A stretch of DNA of 64,000 nt, from assembly GCF_009914755.1 (NCBI RefSeq), contig NC_060926.1. The stretch is one strand, 5' to 3'. A program made the position numbers and the translations under genes. This document shows, one piece after another, positions 3,618 to 64,000 of the stretch. Source of the stretch: the human T2T-CHM13v2.0 reference genome, Homo sapiens. The notes beneath the pieces were generated by a model. The model did no database searches. It saw only the letters and a list, made by a program, of their open reading frames with translations, and was not told where the DNA came from. Each line of letters opens with the position of its first letter. The stretch's first letter is position 1.

Positions 3618-3741
3618 TTAAAAAGAAAATCATGAGATTGAGTCATTATTAACATCCAAGTCTTGTAAACTCTTATTTATTAAAAAGAAAATCATGAGAT
3701 TGAGTCCTTATTGGCATCCAAGTCTTATAAACTCTTAATTA
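3618..3741. repeat. 62-bp tandem duplication (2 copies)
   Basis: TTAAAAAGAAAATCATGAGATTGAGTC...CATCCAAGTCTT.TAAACTCTTA starts at 3618 and again at 3680, with about 5 substitutions. Confidence 0.95.
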
Positions 3742-4266
3742 TACTTTAAATTCTAAGTCCAGCAGCTTAATCACCTGTTTTTAGATTTAGCTGTTGGCTA
3801 CTGAGAGCTTAGAGATTGTGTGGTTTGTTCAGGCAGCCCTAGTAGATTAAATGCCACTTATCATCAGAGAAAGATTGAGAGAGGTACAAAAAAAAAAAAA
3901 GGAGAGAGAGAGATTGGAAAGAGAAGTAATTGTTGTTTGAGCTTACTATTTATATTTCCTGACATTAATTGGTAGCACCATAGAAAGTACCAAAAAGTCA
4001 ACCATGTACTGATGTTAGAAATATAATTTCCAAGTGTAAGTACCACAGTATTCTGGATATCTTGTGTTTCACTTGACGTCTTCAGAATTATGCAAGTGAT
4101 TAACAAAAAAGCCCAATAATATACCCATCTTTTAGTCCATTAGTTTTTGTTTTCAAGTATCAGTTATTAAGCGCTCACTACATGCCTAGTACTGTGGTGA
4201 GAAATTTACTTCCATAATCTTACCTAATCCTCACAACAATTATTTAAGATAAGTATTATTATCTCA

Positions 4267-4577: not shown

Positions 4578-4940
4578 TTTTTTTTTTATTATACTTTAAG
4601 TTTTAGGGTACATGTGCACAATGTGCAGGTTTGTTACATATGCATACATGTGCCATGTTGGTGTGCTGCACCCATTAACTCATCATTTAGCATTAGATAT
4701 ATCTCCTAATGCTATCCCTCCCCCGAAAATGTGGCACATATACACCATGGAATACTATGCAGCCATAAAAAGTGATGAGTTCATGTTCTTTGTAGGGACA
4801 TGGATGAAGCTGGAAACCATCATTCTCAGCAAACTATCGCAAGGACAAAAAACCAAACACCACATGTTCTCACTTATAGGTGGGAATTGAACAATGAGAA
4901 CACATGGACACAGGAAGGGGAACATCATACACCAGGGACT
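4578..4940 (-). mobile_element. Short L1PA (about L1PA2-4) 3' end with 5' inversion
   Basis: 4578-4724 is antisense L1 3' UTR with poly-T; 4725-4940 is sense ORF2 end (KMWHIYTMEYYAAIK...SLIGGN); flanked by TATTATC(A/T)GATTTT. Confidence 0.95.
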
Positions 4941-5640: not shown

Positions 5641-6245
5641 TGAGACAGAATAAGAATGGGACTTTCCCCCAACCATGTCCCATCAAGGACTGCAAGCTGG
5701 TGAGGGGAAGGGCTCCTGGCCAGCAGAGACCCCAATCAGATCATTCAGACCCTGCATCATAATCTTGTGCATGGTGCCATAGCCACTGACTACAGGAAAT
5801 TGAAGAAGCTAAAATAAGCAATTCCCACCATAAATCTTACTCAAGAGAGTCCACCCTAACTCCCACATATGCACAAGACCAGGAGATGACCAACCCTTAA
5901 CCTCAGCTTCATTACTAAAAATCACATACTAAAAATCACACCCAGGGGTAGAGACTTAACATGCAAATGAGACATGCAACATATGAAGAAGCATGTTATC
6001 AAACTGCCCAAGTGCTAACAGTTCCCTGCCTCTGCATACCCAAACACCATTCCTTTCCCTCTGCAGCCCTTTTAAAACTGTCTTTTCATCTCCCTCTGGG
6101 GAGCCAGCCAGAAAATTCTCTCTCTCTGTTGCTGCCTCCTTTATGCCCTGGTGTAAGTTCCAATAAAGACTTGTCTGGGCAAACTCTTTGGGCCTCATGT
6201 CAACTTATATTGCATTGAAGGTCCAAGAACCCAGGGTCAGTAACA
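5641..6245 (+). mobile_element. ERV1-class solo LTR
   Basis: TG...CA termini (TGAGACAG...CAGTAACA), 4-bp TSD AGCC (5637-5640 and 6246-6249), AATAAA at 6162. Confidence 0.85.
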
Positions 6246-18328: not shown

Positions 18329-19077
18329 CATGTACATCTTTTCATGTTATTAAATATACATTTGCATCTTCATTCTAAATATCTGCACTGTGTTTTCTAG
18401 TGTAGATATCCATTAATTATTTAACACCAAAATCAGAGACATGTCTGAAATAAAACTACAAGTCCCAATTTCCCTGGATACTCTACTCAAAATGTAGTTT
18501 GGCATGCATCCATGCACACACAGCCATGCATTTTGTCTCATAATATAGTATTAGAGAAGGCTGAAGTGAACCTGGGAAGTTATAGAAATCCTGGAAGAAT
18601 TAAAAAACTGGGCTAAATGCTTGCAGCATTTTTCCAAATTTGATGGAGCATGGATTCACTATAAACCACTGTAGATGCCTTTGCCTGCTGTAACCCCTAC
18701 CACTGTTGTTTTTGCACATAGTTGATCTTCAAAAGCATTTGTTGATTTTAAAGGAATGAAGGAAGAGAGGACACATGTGATCTTTACCATGAGCTGGAGA
18801 GCTCTGCACTTCAGCAATTGCTCTTTATATCCTCATATAGCTGCGGGTAAAGCATAGTTCTCTGGAAGGAAGACAAAGGGGAAAACAGGAGGCCTCAGGC
18901 ATTACTAGATGGAAACTCCTTAAGAAACCGTAAAACAAGGAAAGCAACTTCTCTCTCAATACTGTAAAGAAAGATATTGGAGAGAAGGTGAGATTTGGCT
19001 TAGTGTGAACAAGCCACAGCTGAGGAGATCATAAGGCCTGAGTACTTAAACATTTAAGTTCCATGCTTTAAATGTTA

Positions 19078-19172
19078 ATTGAGATTAGCTTCAATTTCTG
19101 TGCAAAATAAAAAGGTTATCTGGCCAATGTGTACATGGTTTCCAGAATCAATGAAAGAAATGTATGAAATTG
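19078..19172 (+). repeat. Dispersed repeat A (second copy at 20719-20812)
   Basis: About 95 bp; 5 substitutions and a 1-bp indel between copies. Confidence 0.95.
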
Positions 19173-20686
19173 GCAGGTGAAGACTGCAATTTCTATTTCA
19201 TAAAGAAAAATAGGTAGGAAATAGGTAGGCATGTGTGTGCCTCTAAAGAGTGAATGATGACCAGTCCTGTCAAAAACAAACAAAAAAAATCGTTCAAAAG
19301 GTTTTAAGGTCCCTGTGCGACGTAGAAAGAAGCTAACCTTCGGTCTTCATGATAAGCCATCAAGCCAAGCTAAGCCTGCCCACATTTCTTTCCTGTAACA
19401 GCTTAAAAATATATATAAAATCTAACAGGAATATCACTTTACAAGCAATCAGTAGCAGGACTCCAGCTGATTCCAAAATCATCTTTTTATTGTAACATGT
19501 CTGCTAACCTTCCATTTTATAAAATATCTTCTATACTACTTTCAGTACTTCAGAATATTCCTAAATGTATATACACTGTGGATGGATTTCAGATCTTTTT
19601 GGCCACAAAGGCCAACAGCAAAAGCCAGCCATCGCGTTCCAGGAACGGAGGTGCAAAATGCCGCTCAGATCACACACTCCTGCCTTGTGTTTGGTGAGAA
19701 GCAGCTGCTTCTATGTCAAGTTTATCTGTTTGAAATATTTACTGTATGTAATTATCACTTGGCTGGTGGGCCTTTGCCATAGAAACTGTCTTAGCAAACA
19801 CGATGAACACCAGCGGGAAGATGAGCGCATATTTGGAAGGACAGAAACCCCTCTGCAAAACACCCCAGTCTTGAGAGGAACAGCTTCTGTGTGTGAAAAC
19901 TTGAGAAACAAGTACTGGTTACATAAACAGGAACATGATGGAACCAAATGCTATTCCAGCCTTTTGCCATCATGCTTGGTTTTTGGCATAGAGAGCCAGA
20001 ATAAACGTCCCAGTCTAAAGAGCTCACCAATTGAGGTAACTGGAATTACAATTATAGGAGTTCCTCAGACCCTTCCTACTCAGCCCTGCCAGCTTCTGAC
20101 CATAAGCTGCAACCAACTAACTCAGTCCTATCCACTTTCTAAGATAATTTATTTCTTCTTTCAACAATTATTTTCACTACATATATGTAAGGTGTACAAC
20201 ATGATATTTCGATATCCTTAATTCATAGTGAGGTGGTTCCTATAGTGAGCACCAACTAATGCCCGGCATTCAGCTAGGGGCTGAGGATTCAGTAGTGAAT
20301 GAGACAGGTAGGATCCATAGGGTCAGACACTGTTCTAATGGTCCCTAATGCTGGTTGTATCCTATTTTAGCCAACAACTGTAGCTATTCCTGCTCCCCCC
20401 TTCAGAAGTTTCCACCAACGTGTTCTCACTGCCCTGGAGGTCCCGTGCTAAGCCCACAACCCACCTGATCAATTTCTCAGAAATCTGATTACATCTCTTT
20501 AGTTATCACTTTTTAGATTGCTGGCCAACTGCTCCTGATCCATTACTACAGTCCTGAGCATGTCCGGTCAAATCTTCTTCCCCCTTTCCCACCAGCCAAG
20601 GATACAGTTCTAACATATTATACAGATATTTTGTATCTATTTTGTTTACTGAGGTTCGTATGCATATATATATTTATCTATTTTGT

Positions 20687-20959
20687 TTATTGAGCTTTGT
20701 TTGCATATACATATATGCATTGAGATTAGCGTCAATTTCTGTGCAAAATAAAAGGTTATCCGGCCAATGTGTACATGGCTTCTAGAATCAGTGAAAGAAA
20801 TGTATGAAATTGTGTACAGTGAAAATGAGTACAGTAAATAGTCAGTTTCTCCAAACCAATTCAAGTTTATGTTGCTCACCTATCCTCATCACGCTGACCA
20901 AACTAACCTCCAATGGAAGGAAAGAAGGCGTATACATATATGCATACAAAGCTCAATAA
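20687..20959. other. Composite templated insertion inside a palindrome
   Basis: Copy of 19078-19172, 14-bp linker, copy of 22889-22984; flanked by 32-bp inverted repeats (28/32) and an 18-bp direct repeat (17/18). Confidence 0.9.
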
Positions 20960-20974
20960 GCCCAAATATGTAAG

Positions 20975-21884
<910 letters not shown>

Positions 21885-22293
21885 AATGACTATTTTTGGA
21901 GCTAGCAAGTGCATTTTTATGTTAATGGAATGAAGATTAAACCTGGAATTCAAGGCACACATTTGAAACTAATAATTTTCACAGCTTTAGATAAATTCTG
22001 TCATTATTTTTTAACTCCTTTCCTTGTCTATGAACATGGATTATCATCATTCACAGAGTCATTTCAGTGTAACATAAGCTAACTATGGGAGAGCCTTATA
22101 AAATGTAAATTATTAAACTCTATTATAAATTACGATTATATTACATTATTATTACATTTTGTTACAAATCTATTACAAATGAGAGGTCACTGTTGTGTTA
22201 TGATGCATGTTGAATGTGGTTGACACAAAACTGAAGTCACAGGCACCCTCTGCCATGCATTTGTACCCTTTGTCCTTTTAAAGATTCTAGGGT

Positions 22294-22494
22294 TGCTGTG
22301 TGTAATACAGTAGCCACTAGCCACATCATTTAAATTTAAATTAATTAAAATTAAATAGAGTTAGAGATTCAGGTCCTCAGTTGCACTAGCTGCATTTCAG
22401 GTGCTCTGTAGCCTCATGGGGCTAGTGACTACCTCACTGGACAATGCAGACTATAAAACATTTCTTTCATTACAGAAAGTTGTAGATGGTGCTG
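22294..22494 (-). mobile_element. MER3 (hAT-Charlie)
   Basis: GTAGCCACTAGCCACAT...TTTAAATTTAAATTAATTAAAATTAAAT...CCTCAGTTGCACTAGC...ATTACAGAAAGTT. Confidence 0.85.
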
Positions 22495-22888
22495 ATCAAA
22501 AGGGCAGATACTATGCCCTTGCCCTTCTCAACAAACAACCTGGAAAAAAAATCCTAGAACCCTTTTACAACTCAATATTAAAAATTTGTTGTGACCACTA
22601 TTATCTGTTTTGATCTTGAGACTCTTAGTCAGCCCTATAAGCCCAAATACCCAGGCATCCACTGCCTCGTAAAAGTAAGGTACATACATCTACCCATGAG
22701 TAATGAAATCATCATTCTACACATTTCTGGCCTGATCCTATATTGATCTACCCTTTTCTGGGTCCTTACTCACGACTGTTTCTGTTTATTATCTTGTTCT
22801 TGCTCCTTTTAGCATGACCTTTGCACCTAACATCTCTGACTTCAATTCTGGATTCCTTCTCTGCTTTTCTGGGGTATCCATCCCAAAA

Positions 22889-22984
22889 GAGTACAGTAAA
22901 TAGTTTCTCCAAACCAATTCAAGTCTATGGGGCTGACCCATCCTCATCATGCTGACCAAACTAACCTCCAATAGAATGAAAGAA
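22889..22984 (+). repeat. Dispersed repeat B (second copy at 20827-20926)
   Basis: About 96 bp; about 8 substitutions and a 4-bp indel between copies. Confidence 0.95.
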
Positions 22985-24043
22985 CTGCACCATAAGGGCA
23001 GCAGCAGCTGTTCAGGTTAGGTCAGTGTTGTGAACCTTTGACAGGGGTCATGAATTTCAATGCCTTCAGGAGCCACGCAAGCCACGTAAATGAATGAAGC
23101 AGGCTGAGAGGAACAGGAGGCAGTGGAAGAGATAAGGCAGATGGAGAGCATATGCTCTACCACAGAAAGCAATTCAAATATCAATAAATAAACACTCTGT
23201 GGCAATTGCAGGCACAGAAATTAGAAAAGAAGACATTACACTATCTATGTTTGCAGATGATGAAATAGTGCCCTGGAAAAAAAGGCCAAGAGTATCAATG
23301 CTAAAATTAGTAAAAACAGAAAAAAAAATTAGTAAGCTAGAAAGATAGAATACCAGCATACAAAAATTAGTAATCTTATATATACAAACTTTAATCAGCT
23401 AGAACATAACCCTATTTATAACCACACATGCAAAAAAAGAAAAGATGAAAAATTTGAAACAGTCAAATGAAGAAGGCTTTCAAATATTTCCCCCAAAAGA
23501 CAAAATTAGATTGGGATAAATGCAAAAACATCCTTATTCTTGAACAAAACAATTCAACATCATAAACTTGTCAGGACTTCCCATTATATAAATTTAATGA
23601 GACCCCAATTTTAAAAACTAAGGCGTTTGCTTTTCTGGAACTAAATAAGTTGATTGTAAAGATTACATGCATTTTAACCATTCGAGAAAATCTAGGAAAA
23701 CCCTAAAAAGGAGAAATGAGTAGAGACGAATTCTGCCAGATTAAAACTCAGTATGCAGGCTGCATAATTAAAACAGAGTGGTCCTGGGGCCCAATTAAAT
23801 GAAATAGAAAGTACACAAATAGAAAGAAAAAGATTGATACATTCAACTACAGCAGTGTAAAATAAAACTTTTTGCATGGAGAAAAATGCTGTCAGAAAAG
23901 TAGGAAGGTAAATTATAAACTGGGAGAAAATATTTGCTTAGACAAATTTGGTTAGACAAAGTACTAACCTTGTTAATTTGTAAATAAGTCCCTAAAAATA
24001 AGAAAAAAGAAGCACCAAAAACCTAATACAAAAATGGACAAAA

Positions 24044-25200
24044 GGGGAAGCTCTGTATTGTTGTCCACAGCTGCAGCATTTACATTTCCATCAACTGTGC
24101 ACAAGGGTTCCAATTTCTCAAAAAAATTAAAAAAAGAATGACCATCCAGTAATTCCACTGCCAGTTATATGTCTGAAGGAAATAAAATTTTTATCTCAGA
24201 GAGATAACTGCACTCCCAAGTTCATGGCAGCATTATTCACAATAGCCAGTACATGGAAACAACCCAAATGTCTATGAATGAATGAATGAATGAATGAATG
24301 AATGAATACAGAAAATGTGGTATAGACATACAATGAAATTAATCAGACTTAAACAATAAGGAAATTCTTCCATTTGAGACAACATGGATGAATCTAGATG
24401 ATATTATGCTAACTAAAACAAGACCAGTCAAAGAAGGACAAATACTGCATATTTCCTATTATATGAAGCATCTAAAATAGTCACACTCATAGAAGCAGAG
24501 AGTAGAATGCTGCTTGCCAGGAGCTGGGGAGAAGGGGAGATGAGGAGATGCTGTTCAATGGCTCTAGTCTCTGTTATGCTAGATGAATAAGTTCTAGAGA
24601 TCTCCTGTACAGTACAATGCTGTAGTTGACAATATTGTTTGTGCACATCAAAATTTGTTAGGAGAATGGATCTCATGTTATGTGTTCTTACAAAAACAAA
24701 ACAAAACAAAAGGACATAGGGAAACTTTGGGAGATAGATGTTGGATGTGTCTATTACCTTGATTGTAGTTGACGGTATCAGGGATGTTTACATACATCTA
24801 AACTCATCAATTTTTTTTTTTTGAGACAGAGCCTTGCTCTGTGGCCCAGGCTGGAGTGCAGTGGGGTGATCTTGGCTCACTGCAACCTCTGCCTCCAGGG
24901 TTCAAGTGATTCTCTTGCCTCAGCCTCCTGAGTAGCTGGACTACAGGCATGCACCACCACATCCAGCTAATCTTTAGCCCGTCTCTCTTTTAATAGAGAC
25001 AGGGTTTCACCATGTTGTCTGCGCTGGTCTCAAACTCTTGACCTCAAGTGATCCACCTGCCTTGGCCTCCCAAACTGCTGGCATTACAGCCATGGGCTAC
25101 CATGCCCAGCCTAAACTCGTCAATTTTTATGTACACATTAAGTATGTGCATTTTTATGTACCAATTATACCTCAATAAAGCTGTTTTAAAAATTAAAAAT
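24044..25200 (+). mobile_element. L1MA/MB 3' end with 5' inversion
   Basis: 24044-24119 antisense piece contiguous in L1 coordinates with the sense piece starting near 24118; ends CTCAATAAAGCTG plus A-rich tail; (GAAT)n at 24275-24307. Confidence 0.8.
24811..25111 (-). mobile_element. AluS
   Basis: Antisense dimer; TSD TAAACTC(A/G)TCAATTTTT. Confidence 0.95.
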
Positions 25201-27891: not shown

Positions 27892-28732
27892 AATCATATG
27901 AAAAAAGCTCAGCATCACTGATCTTTAAAGAAATGCAAATCAAAACAACAATGAGATACCATTTCACACCAGCCAGAATGACTATTATTAAAAAGTCAAA
28001 AAATAACAGATGCTGGTGAGATGGTGGAGAAAAAAAAAGAATGCTTATACACTGTCGGTGGGAGTGTAAATTAGTTCATCCATTGTGGAAGACAGTGTGG
28101 CAATTCCTCAAAGACCTAAACACAGGAATACCATTCGACCCAGCAATCCCATTACTGGGTATATACCCAGAGGAATATAAATTATTATATTATAAAGATA
28201 CATGCCCGTGTATGTTCATTGCAGCACTACTATTCACAATAACAAAGACATGGAATCAACCTCAATTCCCATCAATAACAGACTGGATAAATAAAATGTG
28301 GTTCGTATACACCACAGAATACTATGCAGCCATAAAAAGGAATGAGAACATGTCCTTTGCAGGGTCATGGATGGAGCTGGAGGCCATTATCCCTAGCAAA
28401 CTAACAAAGAAACAGAAAACCAAATACCAACATGTTCTCACTTATAAGTGGGAGCTGAATGATAAGAACACATGGACACATGGTAGGGAACAAGACACAG
28501 ACACACTGCGGCCGTTTGGAAGGTGGAGGATGGGAGGAGGGAGAGGATCAGGAAAAAATAACTAATGTGTACTAGGCTTAATACCTGGGTGATGAAATAA
28601 TCTGTACAACAAACCCCCGTAACACAAGTTTATCTAGGCAGCAAACTTGCATTAGACCCCAAACTTAAAATTAAAGTTTTTTAAAAATAAAAAAAGATGT
28701 CCACACAAAACAAACAAATAAAAAAAAAACAC
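27892..28732 (+). mobile_element. 5'-truncated L1PA13-16-like element
   Basis: ORF 28041-28565 translates to the L1 ORF2 C-terminus (HCRWECKLVHPLWKTVW...DPAIPLLGIYP); 3' UTR GGAAAAATAACTAATG; TSD AAAC(A/G)TTTGTTGT. Confidence 0.92.
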
Positions 28733-35907: not shown

Positions 35908-37789
35908 TTGTTTAGTTTATAAAAAGAAGAAAATTCTGCCACTTGTGAAAACATGGATAAAGCTAGAGGACATCACGCTAAGTGAAATAAGCCACTCACA
36001 GCAGGGTGAATACTGCATGGTTCCACCTATATGAGGTATCTACAATAGTCAAACTCATAGAAGCAGAGAATTGTTGCCAGAGGCTGGAGGGGGTGGGAAA
36101 TGGGAAGCTGTTGTTTAATGAGTATAAAGTGTCAGCTACACTAGATGAATAAATTCTAGAGAGCTGTTGTACAATATAGTTCCTGTAGTTAATAACATGG
36201 TATTGTGCACTTTAAAAGTTATCAAGAGGGTAGATCTCATGTTGTGTTCTTACCGAAAATCAAAAATGAAAGCAAAAACAAAGAGACACAAGGAAACCTT
36301 GAGAGGTGTTGGATATGCCTATTACCTTGATTGTGACAATGATATCATGGGTGTCTGCATATTTTCAAACTCATCAGATTGTACATATTAAATATGCACA
36401 GACTTTGCTTTATTAAAGCATCATTGGACAAAATACCAAGTCCAATTAGCATGTGAAAAGATACCTAACCTACAAAGTAATCAAGTAATCTCACAAGTTA
36501 AAACAACAATGGATGCCAAGTTTTGTCCATCAGACTGGCAAAAATAGAAAATGCTGATAATAACCAGTGCAGGCATATATATAGGTAAATTGGGACTTGT
36601 AGGCTTGACAGAGAGTACAAATTAAACTTTGCAACTGTAACTTGGTGTCATATGACAAAATTACAACATACATGTCTTTTAAATTAGAAATTCCAGCAAA
36701 TCTATAAAACTGTCCAAGATACATGCAAACAGATATTTGTATACGGAAGTCAATAGTTAATATTATCTGCAATATAAAAAATTGTTGTAATCTAATTATT
36801 TATAATAGTCTAAGCATTATACAGTGTATGGCAGATGTATTCTGTGAAATACTACTCAGTCATGGAAAACAATGAGGCAGCTATAATAGTCTGATATTAA
36901 TCGCCAATCATGATTTTTGTTAGAAGGTAATCAACATGCATTTCTTTCTTTTCCCTCCTGACTGAATTCCAATTCACTTAAAGTAGCAATGTGCCCAGAT
37001 GAAGGTTTTCTTGAGAGATGGGTAGGTAATGTTGTGCAAACGGAAGTCGATGGGTTTCTGGAAAAGCTAATTAAGAGCGACTGGCTGATTAAATTACATT
37101 CTCCCCATCAATTTCTTCGTCACTCTTGTCTGTATTAGTGATACAATGGCTAGCTCCTGTAGCTATCTTGAATTATGAGATGATCTGGAAGGTGAAAGCC
37201 ATATGCTAAGAATGGCATATGGAAAGGGTAAAAACGGAAGGAGTGGAAAACAAAAAGCATTTTTCAGAACAATATGTGTAAAATATCTGATCTGTGTTTT
37301 TAAAAACCATGTAAATGTGTTTGTATAGAAAGAAAGTCTTTAACAATATACTCAAATTGGTATGAGTGGCTTTTTTATGGAGAGAAGAGTGTATTGTTAT
37401 AAGTTTAATGTTATGCGTTATGGGGAACTTCCTTTTTTGATCTTACTTTTGAATGGTTTTAATTTTTAAAAGCTTATTGCATGCTGTATTTGAAACTTTT
37501 AAAATAACTAAATATATGTAGCCTTGTGTTTTTAGTACAACTTTAATTCTGAATACTCATTTATATTTGATTATTTCAAATGCTGCAATTTTGATAAAAT
37601 GGCACTAAGGCCAAAAGAGACCTTGTAGATTTTCCAATTCCATCTCAAAATTTGACAGGTATGTCCATCAGTCTAGAAAGGTGAATAACCGACCTCAAAG
37701 AAATGCAGCTACCTTACAGCATAGGTCTGGAGGAGCCAACTAATTAAAAACTTAATTTGGAAGCACTAAATTAATTAAAAACCTAATAT

Positions 37790-42288: not shown

Positions 42289-43029
42289 GGATAAAAATGG
42301 TTGTAATGAGTATCTCAACAGCTGTTTTTACAACATGGGATCACCTAAAAACTTGTGTGCTTCACCCCAATTCTTAAGATAAGAGTTCAACCCACATTCA
42401 ATTCTTCTTTAACTGCCTGATCTGTACAGCCCTCTGTGAAAAGGAAATGAGAACTTTAGAAAAGCAAACAGATGTTTAATAACTTCATGTAGTCCCTGCT
42501 AGTTAGACTAGTTAGAGAAAGTAGTTTTGTATAAGCAACTGTCACCATTGGAAGGGGACAGTTTATGGTGTTTTATATAGACTGGAAAAATGTGGAGGAT
42601 ACTTAACGCTTAGATTGGCTTGAAGAGCAGTAAACAGTAGGAATCCACATGGAAATTAATTAGGGTGTAACTCTCTACATGTAGCTGTCCCATATCCTCT
42701 TTTGCCCTCACTGACCTCCTGCTCTTTGGCTTCCAGCCACAACACAACTCTTGGTGATCAGAACCCCCAGGCCGAGCATTTGGTTAATGCTGGTCATTCA
42801 TTCATTCATTGACTAACTCAGAAAATAAAGATGGAGGTTATGTACCAAGAATTGTTGGTTCCCAACTTCTCACTAATTGTTTTGTTCCTGCTATCATCCC
42901 AGCTAACCTAAAGTTCTTCAGAGGCCACAGAACAAATTTTTCACTTTGTTATGATTTCCCACAGTGCCTGGGCAGTGCTGAGCACAAAAGAGGTGATCAG
43001 CACCAGTGCCCAGAACGTTGCTCCACAGT

Positions 43030-43545
43030 GTCCGCAGAAAAAAAGTCAAATCCCTTAGCCTGACTCAAAAAGGACCCTTCGCCCTACCCTGCCTTCTTTC
43101 AGCTTCATTTCTCATCTCTGACAGAACCCACCTTACCAACCCTGTGTTCCCAGCATACTAAGTTTCTTGCAGCGTCAGAATTTGGGTCACACTCTCAATT
43201 TGGAATTTTGCACATGCTATTCCCTCTTGCAGCAACACTCTTCCCATCTTCCCTGTCATCTGGATAACACTACTATTGACTTGACTCAAATATTCCTTAT
43301 CTGGGAAGCTTACCCTGAGACCAAAAAATACAGTCAGCACTCCTCCTGGAAACCTCTATAATGGCCTACACCCACCACTGTGGTATCACTGCAAGATAAA
43401 GGCTTTATAAATACCCATTCAATTAAACTGCCTGAAGTTATGGGCTATGCCTATGTCACAGTTGTATCCCTGAGAACCAACAGTTCTTGGTACCATAGCC
43501 AGCCTCCATATTTACTTTTTGAGTTAGTCAATGAATGAATGAATG
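43030..43545 (+). mobile_element. L2 fragment
   Basis: TTTTGCACATGCTATTCCCTCT...CTCAAAT...; ends in (AATG)n. Confidence 0.6.
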
Positions 43546-43784
43546 GCCTAGCCTTGGTGGGTGGTTCTCAATGATCTCTGCTAACAGAAATTCTCATTCT
43601 TGAAATATTTTAAATATTTAATCTCTCATCCCAGATATTCTACTTTAGGAAGTAGGTTGCTCATTGTGACATATTGTGGCACCATCTAAAGGTTGTCCTG
43701 GCAGCTGAAAATTAGAATACAATTCTTTATACAATTGCAGGATGTGGTGTTAATGAAGCAATGTGCCTGCTACAGAAATAGATT

Positions 43785-61620: not shown

Positions 61621-62393
61621 AAGTTACTTAGTTCTTCACTACATGTTGCATGTTCTCAAAGAGCTCAATGTTTTATCCTAGAGTTACATATACACAGACA
61701 ATTGCAATAGAATATGGTAAGTGCAGTTGGAGTAGTTACTGTAAAGAAGGAAAAGATTTCATTGTTTCTTTTTTTTTTCTATTAACTAGGCTGTAAAAGG
61801 CAGGGTGTTTGGAACAGGAAGCAATGTGGGAAAAGAGTTCACAAGTCATATCTTAAAAATGAACAAAAAAGCTTGGCAGAAAAATAAGAGTGGAGGATCA
61901 TGCAGGTGGAAGGAATGAAATATGCCAAGTCATTGAGGCACAAAACATCCTGGTAGAACATGCTTCCTCCCCTGAGTTCCCCAATTGGAGCATCTCCTTG
62001 GAGATACATCAAGTTTCAGAATGGACTAGACCCTACACATCTCTAATCCTAATGCAGCCCAGTCCCAAGATGCTCCAAGTCATAGCAAATAAGAATAAAC
62101 TGTGCACTTATGAAATCAGGCTGACCTATTGGCTTAGCTATTTTTCTTTAATTTTGTGGTTATAGCTGCATCCACAGAAAAGGTTAGGATTTCAATTGGG
62201 TAAAGGAGAGATAATAACTCTATATGGGAGAAAACAGGGAGGGTATATTAGACGGTATTAGCAATTATTAAACTTAGGACTTTAAATAGCGAGGCTAAAT
62301 GATCATATATATTTACATAGGTGTATAAGTAATATTAATACATGTGGAGTACTTCATATGACTTTGTTATATCAAAAATGCCTTTTAGTATAC

Positions 62394-62421
62394 ATATATT
62401 ATGCACATGTGCATAATATAT
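62394..62421. repeat. Perfect 28-bp palindrome
   Basis: ATATATTATGCACA|TGTGCATAATATAT. Confidence 0.95.
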
Positions 62422-64000
62422 ATTTATAATATCTTCACATATTATGTATCATATATTATGTATATGTGATATTTACGTATATATTACCTTATATTAGGAA
62501 GGCATTTTTCACATAATGAATAGATGCAAAAGTGAACATTTCATACTGAATTCTGTGTTCCAAGGGTTCTAGTTATAACACAGTTTCAGTGTGTCTGAAC
62601 ATACACATTTAAAAAAATTAAACCGTTAGCTTCTCTCTGACTGGAAATGAATAGAAACCTAGAACACGTAATTAGAAGCCCTTCTTGTTCATTTTTTGTT
62701 GCATGTAGCTTTTCTTTAATAATATGAGTCTTACTGGGATCAAGTCTTAAACTCAGTAAATAAAAAGCACAGATCACAGCTTACTGCACTTGGCACCCTG
62801 GAAAAGCTGCTAAATTATTAAAGAGGCTCAGGCTGTCATTGCCACCTTGTTATTTTTATTTTCTTAAAGATGCAGGGAGCCTGCAGTTTAAAGCACAAAA
62901 TTGCTCTCACCACTGCCATGAATTTTGAAGCGCCTCCTGCACTGCACTGATGTCACATTGTAGAACGAATGGTTCAATGTTGTAACCCTGAGTCGCCTGC
63001 TACCATAGCAACCTGTTGGTTCAGAATGAATTGAATTATGAGATTATCACTAAAGAGGTAGGGTGGGGCTTCTGTTTTATTTACTTTTTCATCAGTTCAC
63101 TGTGCAATGCCTACGAATGGGAAGAACAGAAAGCAATGATTTTTTTGTTTCTTTCAAAATATATGTTGTATTTTAAAACTATCAGGATTATTAAATATCC
63201 ATGTTAAATGTATAGGGGTTAGTTTATCACCGTATCAGCTAAGGGCAGTAGAGAACAAATAAAAAAAAATCTTCATTATCTCATTGCAAATTCATTTCTT
63301 TTTAAAAATAATGGAATTTGGGCAGTAGGTAGATAGGAAAATCATATCAAAATGAAACTTGATCTCATCTGTTTCCCCTGTCCATATGGGATAATTTTAG
63401 CATAAATTGGGATTTTTAAACTTAAAATAAACCTGAAGTGTTGGTTCATACCACCCACGGGCTTCTAAACATTCCAATTCCCGTGAAATGGCCCCAGTTA
63501 AATTGTATCCCATGACAGATGGAATCAGAACTTGTTGCTTCATTACAAACCACTTTCCCAAAATAGCTGCAGCATGAGAAATAATCCTGTTTGTAAATGG
63601 AACAAAAGTGCTTTCACAATGTGGTCTATTTATGGGGAAACCATTATATGCATGCCTTATAGCTCTCTCCCTATTTAATGCCTAATATTAAGATTTACAT
63701 AGTGCAAATGATTAGCAGTAGTTGTTGGCTAATTGATTGGACAAATTTACCTTATATTTGACAACACTTTGTTCCAGGGACTGTAAAGCCACTTCACACA
63801 CATTGTCAATAAATCCTTACAACAGCCCTGAAAGGTAAATATAATTCTCACCTTAGACCCAGCTAGATCCCATGCCTGTCAGGTAAATAGGAAAACCAGG
63901 ATTTTACTCTTGCACTTTTTTATTATCCCCAAAATATATTCTTTAAAAGCTCCAATGCATCAGATCAGAGAAGTTTTTGGAATGAAAATCTGAATGCTTT

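What the first reader, a model, noticed from the sequence alone, without database searches (positions are those of the whole stretch)
20687..20959. Two-donor templated insertion in the centre of a 48-bp palindrome
Seen: 20719-20812 copies 19078-19172 (1.6 kb upstream, ~94% identity) and 20827-20926 copies 22889-22984 (2.1 kb downstream, ~90%). Both are in direct orientation, joined by a 14-bp linker TGTACAGTGAAAAT that echoes the start of donor B. The cassette is bracketed by an 18-bp direct repeat GC(A/G)TATACATATATGCAT (20703, 20928) and by 32-bp inverted repeats (28/32). Removing the cassette and one direct repeat leaves TTATTGAGCTTTGTTTGCATATA-CA-TATATGCATACAAAGCTCAATAA, a hairpin with 22/23 paired arms and a 2-nt loop. 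There is no poly-A and no transposon I recognise. Inference: a staggered break at a cruciform was repaired by serial template switching (MMBIR or Pol theta-like) that sampled both flanks, then became fixed in the primate germline.
Basis: partly seen in the sequence, partly recalled or inferred. Interest (0 to 1): 0.85.

Follow-up and report, generated by a model that had tools for sequence, protein, structure and literature searches.

The report
Two-donor repair patch inside a palindrome
A 207-base patch copied from two nearby single-copy stretches was inserted long ago at the centre of a short hairpin-forming sequence, which is a tidy example of a known kind of DNA-break repair scar, not a new mechanism.

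Summary
20719-20812 copies 19078-19172 (89 of 95 columns) and the right half copies 22890-22984, both in direct orientation. A whole-genome search of the T2T assembly finds only these three places, so the pieces are not an interspersed repeat. The patch is bracketed by a direct 18-mer (17/18). The 18-mer is followed outwards by perfect 14-nt inverted arms. Removing the patch and one 18-mer gives a 48-nt hairpin of -18.8 kcal/mol, against -1.9 +/- 1.3 for shuffles.

One correction: the "linker" is a 15-bp tandem duplication of the A/B junction. Each unit is one mismatch from 19165-19172 followed by 22890-22896.

There is no poly-A and no L1 cleavage motif. The implied intron would be GC-AG and would skip a canonical GT site 4 nt downstream, so an RNA origin is unlikely.

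The closest known class is the chimeric proximal repair-mediated duplication of Pace et al. 2009 (PMC2671141). That study reported over 1,000 cases in human, 20 of them with two donors, and flanking duplications of 4-21 nt. The palindromic target is the unusual part. Cruciform cleavage is plausible but not shown.

Divergence of 6.9% suggests an age of about 16-33 Myr. No outgroup genome was available, so the empty allele remains untested.

The parts
19078..19172 (+). Donor A, the single-copy template of the left half of the cassette, 1641 bp upstream (start to start)
   Evidence: 89 of 95 columns identical to 20719-20812. The genome search with 18700-19600 finds only itself and the cassette.
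22890..22984 (+). Donor B, the single-copy template of the right half of the cassette, 2062 bp downstream (start to start)
   Evidence: 8 substitutions in 95 aligned bases plus one 4-nt gap against 20828-20926. Local alignment extends it to 22885. The genome search with 22500-23400 finds only itself and the cassette for this stretch.
20687..20702 (+). Outer part of the left palindrome arm. It is also part of the second unit of a 41-bp tandem duplication at 20626-20714.
   Evidence: 20687-20700 is complementary to 20946-20959 at 14 of 14 positions. TRF reports period 41, 2.1 copies, 85% matches.
20703..20720 (+). Left copy of the duplicated target (16-18 nt). It is the self-complementary core of the palindrome. 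The last two bases, AT, could equally belong to donor A (2-nt microhomology).
   Evidence: 17/18 direct match to 20928-20945, against 9 mismatches in the inverted sense. Donor A homology begins at 20719.
20721..20812 (+). Copy of donor A (homology starts at 20719)
20805..20835 (+). The inferred original junction is 19172 joined to 22890, with 1 nt (G) of microhomology.
   Evidence: TRF reports period 15, 2.1 copies, 87% matches. Each unit is 1 mismatch from 19165-19172 followed by 22890-22896. The alternatives give 4 and 6 mismatches.
20828..20926 (+). Copy of donor B
20927..20927 (+). One untemplated filler base (G) at the right junction. Donor B continues with C at 22985.
   Evidence: Read directly.
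20928..20945 (+). Right copy of the duplicated target
   Evidence: 17/18 direct match
20946..20959 (+). Outer part of the right palindrome arm
   Evidence: 14 of 14 complementary to 20687-20700

Best explanation
This is an old chimeric 'repair-mediated duplication'. A double-strand break, or a stalled and collapsed fork, occurred at the centre of a short AT-rich palindrome of 48 nt (arms 22/23, centre at 20710-20711). It was mended at the DNA level by copying two nearby single-copy stretches of the same chromosome.

About 95 nt came from 1.6 kb upstream (19078-19172) and about 95 nt from 2.0 kb downstream (22890-22984). The two copies were joined head to tail at a junction with at most 1 nt of microhomology. 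The left junction uses 2 nt of microhomology (AT) and the right junction carries one filler base.

The 16-18 nt self-complementary core of the palindrome ended up on both sides of the patch. This would happen if the break had 16-18-nt overhangs that both survived, or if synthesis re-entered the original template 16-18 nt behind the point where it left. A 15-bp stretch spanning the A/B junction was duplicated in tandem, either during the same error-prone synthesis or later.

Shown: the copies, their uniqueness in the genome, their orientation, the junction anatomy, the direct duplication, and the hairpin potential of the reconstructed site. Inferred: the break itself, the polymerase route (two-ended SDSA or serial switching by one end), that the palindrome pre-existed, the role of a hairpin or cruciform, and the age of about 16-33 Myr.
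For: - The cassette and both donors are the only three places in the 3.1-Gb assembly that match (3 candidates, 3 scored).
- Both halves are direct and in the chromosomal order A then B.
- The cassette, and neither donor, is bounded by a direct repeat of the target: 17/18 direct against 9 mismatches inverted.
- No A or T run of 5 or more lies at either end of the cassette, and the sites that would have been nicked do not fit the 5'-TTTT/A-3' L1 motif (sequence; motif as quoted in PMC5110952).
- Junction anatomy: 2-nt microhomology, a 16-18-nt flanking duplication and 1 filler base. This is the 'MH+TSD+Filler' class that Pace et al. list for 2 of 39 inspected proximal duplications (Table 1 of PMC2671141).
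- That paper reports 1,136 single-donor-copy insertions in human, 824 of them within 5 kb of the donor, with a mean length of 162 bp. Twenty are chimeras of two donors, five of these with the second donor within 3.5 kb of the first. Flanking duplications are 4-21 nt, and none of the 39 inspected proximal cases has a poly-A/T tail.
- The reconstructed empty site folds at -18.8 kcal/mol against -1.9 +/- 1.3 for shuffles. Palindromes of this quality are rare locally: 1 other in 64 kb and 0 in 5 shuffled windows.
- Breakage at the centre of AT-rich palindromes is documented for the much longer human PATRRs (PMC4940405, passages read).
Against: - No outgroup genome could be examined. The empty allele, the direction of copying and the pre-existence of the palindrome all rest on parsimony.
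- The genome search is heuristic and its counts are lower bounds (tool text). Very old, highly diverged family members could have been missed.
- An inner junction with only 1 nt of shared sequence is weak for the annealing step of two-ended SDSA. The 15-bp junction duplication needs an extra step.
- The implied deleted interval 19173-22889 begins GC and ends AG and is preceded by a pyrimidine-rich stretch. A spliced RNA template is therefore not fully excluded.
- PATRR breaks give small deletions at the centre, not a duplication of the centre. Those palindromes are also far longer than 48 nt.
Confidence: 0.7

Rival explanations
1. The same templated repair event took place, but the palindrome did not exist beforehand. 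After copying A and B, the growing strand re-copied the 18-nt core. It then paired through that self-complementary core with the left copy and copied the left arm backwards (fold-back synthesis). This created the right arm 20946-20959 before the strand rejoined the right flank.
For: A fold-back extension from the core along 20702-20687 would give the observed right arm at 15 of 16 positions; the one mismatch is the same one counted in the 22/23 arms (sequence). The site shows other local copying in both orientations: a 41-bp tandem duplication that includes the left arm, and a second small inverted repeat at 20952-20985.
Against: It needs two more template switches than a simple insertion with a flanking duplication. 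A pre-existing palindrome also explains why a break occurred at exactly this spot and why the duplicated stretch is the palindrome's own core.
Confidence: 0.18
2. The patch was templated by RNA. A transcript of the + strand, spliced from 19172 to 22890, was reverse-transcribed and inserted into its own intron. This happened either by L1 target-primed reverse transcription or as a cDNA patch at a break (class 1 or class 2 templated sequence insertion).
For: Once the 15-bp junction duplication is removed, the A/B junction is clean. The removed interval begins GC and ends AG, with a pyrimidine-rich stretch before the AG. An 18-nt flanking duplication lies within the range seen with L1-mediated insertions; class 1 TSIPs have duplications of at least 5 bp (PMC5110952).
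Against: There is no poly-A at either end and no 5'-TTTT/A-3' target (criteria). A canonical CAG|GT site lies only 4 nt downstream of the A end and was not used, and GC-AG introns are a small minority (recalled). By my estimate, a random junction with 1 nt of ambiguity would show GC...AG about as often as a true intron would be of the GC-AG type, so the splice-like ends carry almost no weight. No exon is annotated here: the hub table lists only a lncRNA ending at 6186. In Pace et al., 0 of 39 inspected proximal duplications had poly-A/T tails and all were classed as DNA repair.
Confidence: 0.08
3. The direction is the reverse, or the pattern is left over from larger duplications. On this view 20719-20926 is ancestral and contiguous, and the two distant pieces are derived copies or remnants.
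For: Without an outgroup, polarity is not observed directly. At the three differences that fall in a CpG context, it is the cassette that carries the CpG. This is neutral as to direction.
Against: It needs two separate copying events that split the cassette at exactly one point, with no overlap and no gap, and land on opposite sides in the matching order. No homology extends beyond the donors on either side. The insertion-type flanking duplication is at the cassette and not at the donors.
Confidence: 0.03
4. The 273-nt unit 20687-20959 is a small non-autonomous DNA transposon with 32-nt terminal inverted repeats that had captured host fragments.
For: There are 32-35-nt inverted repeats at both ends.
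Against: The arm 23-mer with up to 3 mismatches gave 29 genome matches (13 forward, 16 reverse). Only the two local arms match at 0-1 mismatch; the rest have 2-3 mismatches. The reversed-pattern control gave 6. The cassette has no other copy in the genome. There is no direct repeat immediately outside the inverted repeats. The inner ends of the 'inverted repeats' are in fact a direct repeat.
Confidence: 0.01

Closest known systems
[quoted passage not shown]
   Same: - The insert is found at only one other genomic place per piece.
- The donors lie under 5 kb away on the same chromosome.
- Each piece is about 95 nt, against a mean of 162 bp for proximal duplications.
- Two donors are joined at minimal microhomology.
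- There is no poly-A, and there is microhomology plus filler plus a flanking duplication within their 4-21-nt range.
- The estimated age falls in the period when their rate was highest.
   Different: - Their pipeline only finds acceptors inside annotated transposable elements. Here the immediate flanks (about 20250-21040) are unique sequence, so this locus is probably not in their list. Their Table S1 could not be opened.
- Their main text never mentions palindromes, hairpins or staggered breaks (0 occurrences each).
- Here the acceptor is the centre of a 48-nt palindrome, and the duplicated target is its self-complementary core.
Templated sequence insertion polymorphisms, class 1 (L1 ORF2-mediated) and class 2 (cDNA patch at a break) (Onozawa and Aplan 2016, PMC5110952; abstract and section 9 read)
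   Same: An insertion of a unique genomic sequence at a break. A flanking duplication as in class 1. No poly-A and junction microhomology or filler as in class 2.
   Different: Those insertions come from distant regions through RNA. This one has donors 1.6-2 kb away on both sides. It lacks the class 1 poly-A, polyadenylation signal and TTTT/A site, and it has a flanking duplication, which class 2 lacks.
Palindrome-mediated breakage at palindromic AT-rich repeats (Inagaki, Kato, Kurahashi 2016 review, PMC4940405; passages read)
   Same: An AT-rich palindrome with the rearrangement exactly at its centre of symmetry. Non-B DNA is the proposed cause.
   Different: PATRRs are much longer (recalled: hundreds of bases). 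They give translocations with small deletions at the centre, through diagonal cruciform cleavage and hairpin-tip opening. That route should not leave a direct duplication of the centre.
MMBIR / FoSTeS and Pol theta-mediated templated insertions (for example PMC8421209 and PMC2943611, seen only as search listings and abstract openings; the mechanisms are otherwise recalled)
   Same: Template switching at 0-3 nt of microhomology, short stretches copied from nearby DNA, and small duplications at the junctions.
   Different: Pol theta inserts are usually much shorter and copied from within tens of bases of the break (recalled). MMBIR is usually invoked for larger complex rearrangements. Neither route can be told apart from two-ended SDSA on this sequence alone.

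Membership tests
Proximal repair-mediated duplication (Pace et al. 2009) | The inserted sequence of 50 bp or more is found at only one other place in the genome | tested here: met
   3 candidates and 3 matches (the cassette itself plus one place for each half). Searches confirm this from the donor side. The search is heuristic and its counts are lower bounds.
Proximal repair-mediated duplication (Pace et al. 2009) | The donor is on the same chromosome, more than 50 bp and less than 5 kb from the acceptor | tested here: met
   1641 bp for A and 2062 bp for B, start to start
Proximal repair-mediated duplication (Pace et al. 2009) | No poly-A/T tract of 5 or more at an end; breakpoints show microhomology, filler, deletion or a target duplication | tested here: met
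   One search shows no such tract. There is 2-nt microhomology (AT) on the left, 1 filler G on the right, and a 16-18-nt duplication.
Proximal repair-mediated duplication (Pace et al. 2009) | An empty pre-insertion site in an outgroup species, or in a transposable-element consensus | not testable with these tools
   No primate genomes are held ('It has no relatives here'). The flanks are unique, so no paralogous copy can stand in for the empty site.
Chimeric RD (two donors) | Two different donor sequences are joined within one acceptor, at least one of them within 5 kb | tested here: met
   The inner junction is 19172|22890 with 1 nt shared, and was then duplicated in tandem (15 bp).
L1-mediated processed retrocopy / class 1 TSIP | Poly-A tail at the 3' end | tested here: not met
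   the cassette ends in a purine-rich stretch with no A-run of 5 or more, and there is no T-run at the other end.
L1-mediated processed retrocopy / class 1 TSIP | Insertion at a 5'-TTTT/A-3' type site | tested here: not met
   Read: the strand that would prime ends in ...ATGC before the nick (+ orientation) or ...GCAT (- orientation).
L1-mediated processed retrocopy / class 1 TSIP | Target-site duplication of at least 5 bp | tested here: met
   17/18 direct repeat
L1-mediated processed retrocopy / class 1 TSIP | Intron removed at canonical splice sites | tested here: not met
   The implied interval is GC...AG, and the canonical CAG|GT site 4 nt downstream was not used.
DNA transposon / MITE | A multicopy family sharing terminal inverted repeats | tested here: not met
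   of 29 matches at up to 3 mismatches, only the 2 local arms match at 0-1 mismatch; the cassette is unique.
PATRR-type cruciform breakage | A long AT-rich palindrome, breakage at the centre, small central deletions | tested here: inconclusive
   The position at the centre is met. The length (48 nt) and the outcome (duplication, not deletion) differ from the description in PMC4940405.

The most novel reading that the evidence does not exclude
The flanking duplication may be exactly the symmetric 16-nt core of the palindrome: 7 + 2 + 7 nt around the dyad at 20710-20711, with the extra AT being microhomology with donor A. On that reading the break was made by a structure-specific cut at equivalent positions on the two hairpins of an extruded cruciform, or by a nascent-strand hairpin that left the core to be copied twice. 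The locus would then be a germline fossil recording the cleavage geometry of a short (48-nt) cruciform in a primate ancestor. It would also suggest that short palindromes are preferred acceptor sites for repair-mediated duplications. That can be tested genome-wide by reconstructing empty sites.
Probability: 0.25. Interest if true: 0.55.

Novelty: new member of a known kind. Interest (0 to 1): 0.3.

Why it matters
On its own this is one more scar of imperfect break repair, a class with over 1,000 catalogued cases in human (PMC2671141). Its value is as an unusually legible example. Both donors are unique, they lie on opposite sides of the break, all three junctions can be read to the base, and the target is a near-perfect short palindrome whose own core was duplicated.

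If outgroups show the intact palindrome, the locus links hairpin- or cruciform-prone short inverted repeats to germline templated insertions. That would justify a systematic scan for palindromic empty sites among such insertions. The published catalogue could only see acceptors inside transposable elements, so cases like this one in unique DNA were outside its reach.

Tried and rejected
1. Interspersed repeat or transposon. Rejected: the cassette, the donors and the arms are not multicopy.

2. A paralogous 'empty site' from repeat copies. The flanks 20100-20720 and 20928-21560 were searched genome-wide, and 18 fetched loci were aligned to 20000-21600. Only old repeats at 20151-20246 and at about 21044-21560 match, and nothing spans the insertion site. 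This route led nowhere.

3. The linker as a continuation of donor A, or as upstream sequence of donor B. These give 6 and 4 mismatches of 15, against 1 of 15 for the junction-duplication reading. Rejected.

4. The 10-of-11 match between the start of donor A (19073-19083) and the outer arm motif, as a possible invasion site. 98 of 1500 random 30-nt windows do as well, and four boundaries were tested. Treated as chance.

5. Structured RNA genes. Rfam at E<=1 over 18500-23500 gave 5 matches, all inside the Alu at about 21600-21910, and none in the cassette or donors.

A second call, sent in the same turn, failed on a missing field.

7. Table S1 of PMC2671141 could show whether this locus is already listed.

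8. A difference in substitution load between the two halves, as a sign of two events or of error-prone synthesis: 5 of 94 against 8 of 95, Fisher p = 0.57. No signal.

No paper on this particular locus was searched for. The five literature searches were about mechanisms, so I make no claim that the locus is undescribed.

Full report
WHAT IS THERE.

The stretch 20719-20812 matches 19078-19172, with 89 of 95 alignment columns identical (5 substitutions, one 1-nt gap). The right half matches 22885/22890-22984. Local alignment gives 91 of 104 columns with one 4-nt gap. Counted from the junction I infer, there are 8 substitutions in 95 aligned bases. Both copies are direct and lie in the same order as the donors on the chromosome. 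A self-comparison of the whole 64-kb window lists these two pairs among only 7 low-copy local repeat pairs.

NOT A REPEAT FAMILY. The window's own 3.1-Gb assembly can be searched.
- The 208-nt cassette gave 3 first-look candidates and 3 matches: itself and the two donors.
- 901 nt around donor A gave 2 matches: itself and the cassette.
- 901 nt around donor B gave itself, the cassette and five 69-77% matches, all confined to about 23200-23390, outside the donor. That shows the search does see old, diverged repeats.
- A 23-nt pattern of the palindrome arm, allowing 3 mismatches, gave 29 matches. Only the two local arms have 0-1 mismatch, and the reversed-pattern control gave 6.
- The tool states that its counts are lower bounds, so RepeatMasker/Dfam remains a worthwhile check.
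- Rfam found nothing in the cassette or donors. Its five matches at E<=1 all lie in the Alu at about 21600-21910.

THE TARGET.
- 20703-20720 and 20928-20945 agree at 17 of 18 positions in the direct sense but have 9 mismatches in the inverted sense. For the 16-nt core the figures are 1 and 3. The asymmetric CA centre is kept in the same orientation on both sides, so this is a true direct duplication of the target and not simply the inner part of an inverted repeat.
- Outside the duplication, 20687-20700 and 20946-20959 are complementary at 14 of 14 positions.
- I took out the cassette and one copy of the 18-mer inside a script. The resulting 48-nt site folds into a single hairpin at -18.8 kcal/mol with DNA parameters. 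500 shuffles gave -1.88 +/- 1.29, with a minimum of -6.9.
- The window holds one other palindrome with arms of 16 nt or more and at most 1 mismatch (62392-62423). Five block-shuffled windows hold none.
- The duplicated 18-mer spans 7 nt left of the centre, the 2-nt centre, and 9 nt to its right. Donor A also begins with AT, so the last two bases are ambiguous. The duplication may be the exactly symmetric 16-nt core.

THE JUNCTIONS.
- Left: 2 nt (AT) are shared between the end of the target copy and the start of donor A.
- Right: one base (G, 20927) is not templated, because donor B continues with C.
- Middle: Tandem Repeats Finder reports 20805-20835 as 2.1 copies of a 15-nt unit at 87% matches. 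Each unit differs at one position from 19165-19172 followed by 22890-22896. Reading the second unit as sequence upstream of donor B costs 4 mismatches. Reading the first unit as a continuation of donor A costs 6.

DNA OR RNA TEMPLATE. A clean junction invites the idea of a spliced transcript copied back into its own intron.

For this idea: the removed interval begins GC and ends AG, with a pyrimidine-rich stretch before the AG.

Against it:
- A canonical CAG|GT site lies 4 nt downstream of the A end and was not used.
- There is no A-run or T-run at either end.
- Neither possible nick site resembles 5'-TTTT/A-3' (criteria from PMC5110952).
- No exon is annotated here.

By my own estimate, a random junction with 1 nt of ambiguity shows GC...AG about as often as a true intron is of the GC-AG type. 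The GC-AG frequency is recalled, not computed. The splice-like ends therefore carry little weight. I put the RNA route near 8%.

CLOSEST KNOWN CLASS. Pace et al. 2009 (PMC2671141; abstract and sections 4, 6, 7 and 8 read) searched for insertions of 50 bp or more inside human transposable elements that have exactly one other copy in the genome.
- They found 1,136 such insertions, 824 with the donor within 5 kb and 753 within 3 kb. The proximal ones have a mean length of 162 bp.
- Twenty acceptors are chimeras of two donors. In five of these the second donor is within 3.5 kb of the first.
- Of 39 inspected proximal cases, none has a poly-A/T tail. Six carry a target-site duplication, with a range of 4-21 nt in the table. 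Two are of the class 'microhomology + TSD + filler', which is what I see here.
- Their model is synthesis-dependent strand annealing. Either one end copies and returns, or each 3' end invades its own template and the two new strands join.
- The present locus meets every sequence criterion that I could test (see Membership tests). The exception is the outgroup empty site, which these tools cannot provide.
- Their pipeline needs the acceptor to lie in an annotated transposable element. Here the flanks from about 20250 to 21040 are unique, so this case probably escaped it. I could not open their Table S1.
- Their main text does not mention palindromes, hairpins or staggered breaks.

HOW IT MOST LIKELY HAPPENED (inference).
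1. A break arose at the centre of the palindrome. Breakage at the centre of much longer AT-rich palindromes is documented in human (PMC4940405). Those events show small central deletions, though, and the proposed route there (diagonal cruciform cleavage followed by hairpin-tip opening) would not duplicate the centre.
2. A direct 16-18-nt duplication needs one of two things. One is nicks offset by 16-18 nt, with both overhangs preserved; nicks at equivalent positions on the two hairpins would give exactly this, leaving 3' overhangs that can prime synthesis. The other is a replicative event in which the nascent core folds on itself, the 3' end wanders to A and then to B, and it re-enters the still-unpaired template at the start of the core.
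3. The sequence cannot separate these two routes.
4. It also cannot exclude that the right arm was made in the same event, by fold-back copying of the left arm. That would give the observed arm at 15 of 16 positions. I give this about 18%.

AGE. There are 13 substitutions in 189 aligned bases (6.9% raw, 7.25% Kimura two-parameter). Three of the 13 are in a CpG context, and in each it is the cassette that carries the CpG.
- At 2.2e-9 per site per year, the rate used by Pace et al., this gives about 16 Myr.
- At about 1.1e-9, a hominoid/catarrhine rate that I recall, it gives about 33 Myr.
- Poisson limits stretch the range to 7-50 Myr.
- The event is old and surely fixed, but whether it predates the split from Old World monkeys is open.
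- The two halves do not differ in substitution load (Fisher p = 0.57).

CHECKS THAT CAME TO NOTHING. The 10-of-11 similarity between the start of donor A and the outer arm motif looked like a possible invasion site. However, 98 of 1500 random windows match the acceptor equally well. No paralogous copy supplies an empty site.

VERDICT. In kind this is a new member of a known class, and its one unusual feature is the palindromic target with a dyad-centred duplication. Interest is modest.

Noticed in passing
window 20626-20714: A 41-bp tandem duplication (2.1 copies, 85% matches). Its second unit is the left arm of the palindrome and the first 12 nt of the core. The site had therefore already undergone, or later underwent, another small local duplication.
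   Followed up: partly
window 20952-20985: A second small inverted repeat. The outer end of the right palindrome arm, plus 4 nt, can pair with 20974-20985 (26 of 34 columns in the self-blast row). The motif GTTTATTGAG occurs 10/10 in direct orientation at 20685 and 20976.
   Followed up: partly
window 42792-42864 and 43471-43548: A low-copy inverted pair, 84.6% over 78 columns, with starts 679 bp apart. This may be another local repair-type duplication.
   Followed up: no
window 3618-3742: A 63-bp tandem duplication at 92% identity.
   Followed up: no
window 62392-62423: The only other palindrome in the window with arms of 16 nt or more and at most 1 mismatch (spacer 0, 78% A+T).
   Followed up: no
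window about 21567-21888: An Alu on the minus strand, lying between the cassette and donor B (Rfam SRP-type matches at 21602-21883; masked in the hub table). If it is younger than the insertion, donor B was about 320 bp closer to the break at the time of the event.
   Followed up: no
window 20151-20246, about 21044-21560, about 23200-23390: Old interspersed repeats at about 70-85% identity to many genomic places (2470 first-look candidates for the 21241-21560 part). None of them reaches the insertion site or the donors.
   Followed up: partly
window 4726-4924 / 28293-28492 and 24352-24809 / 35921-36376: Two-copy direct matches within the window at 81% and 73% identity, 23.6 and 11.6 kb apart. 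These are probably members of low-copy old repeat families.
   Followed up: no
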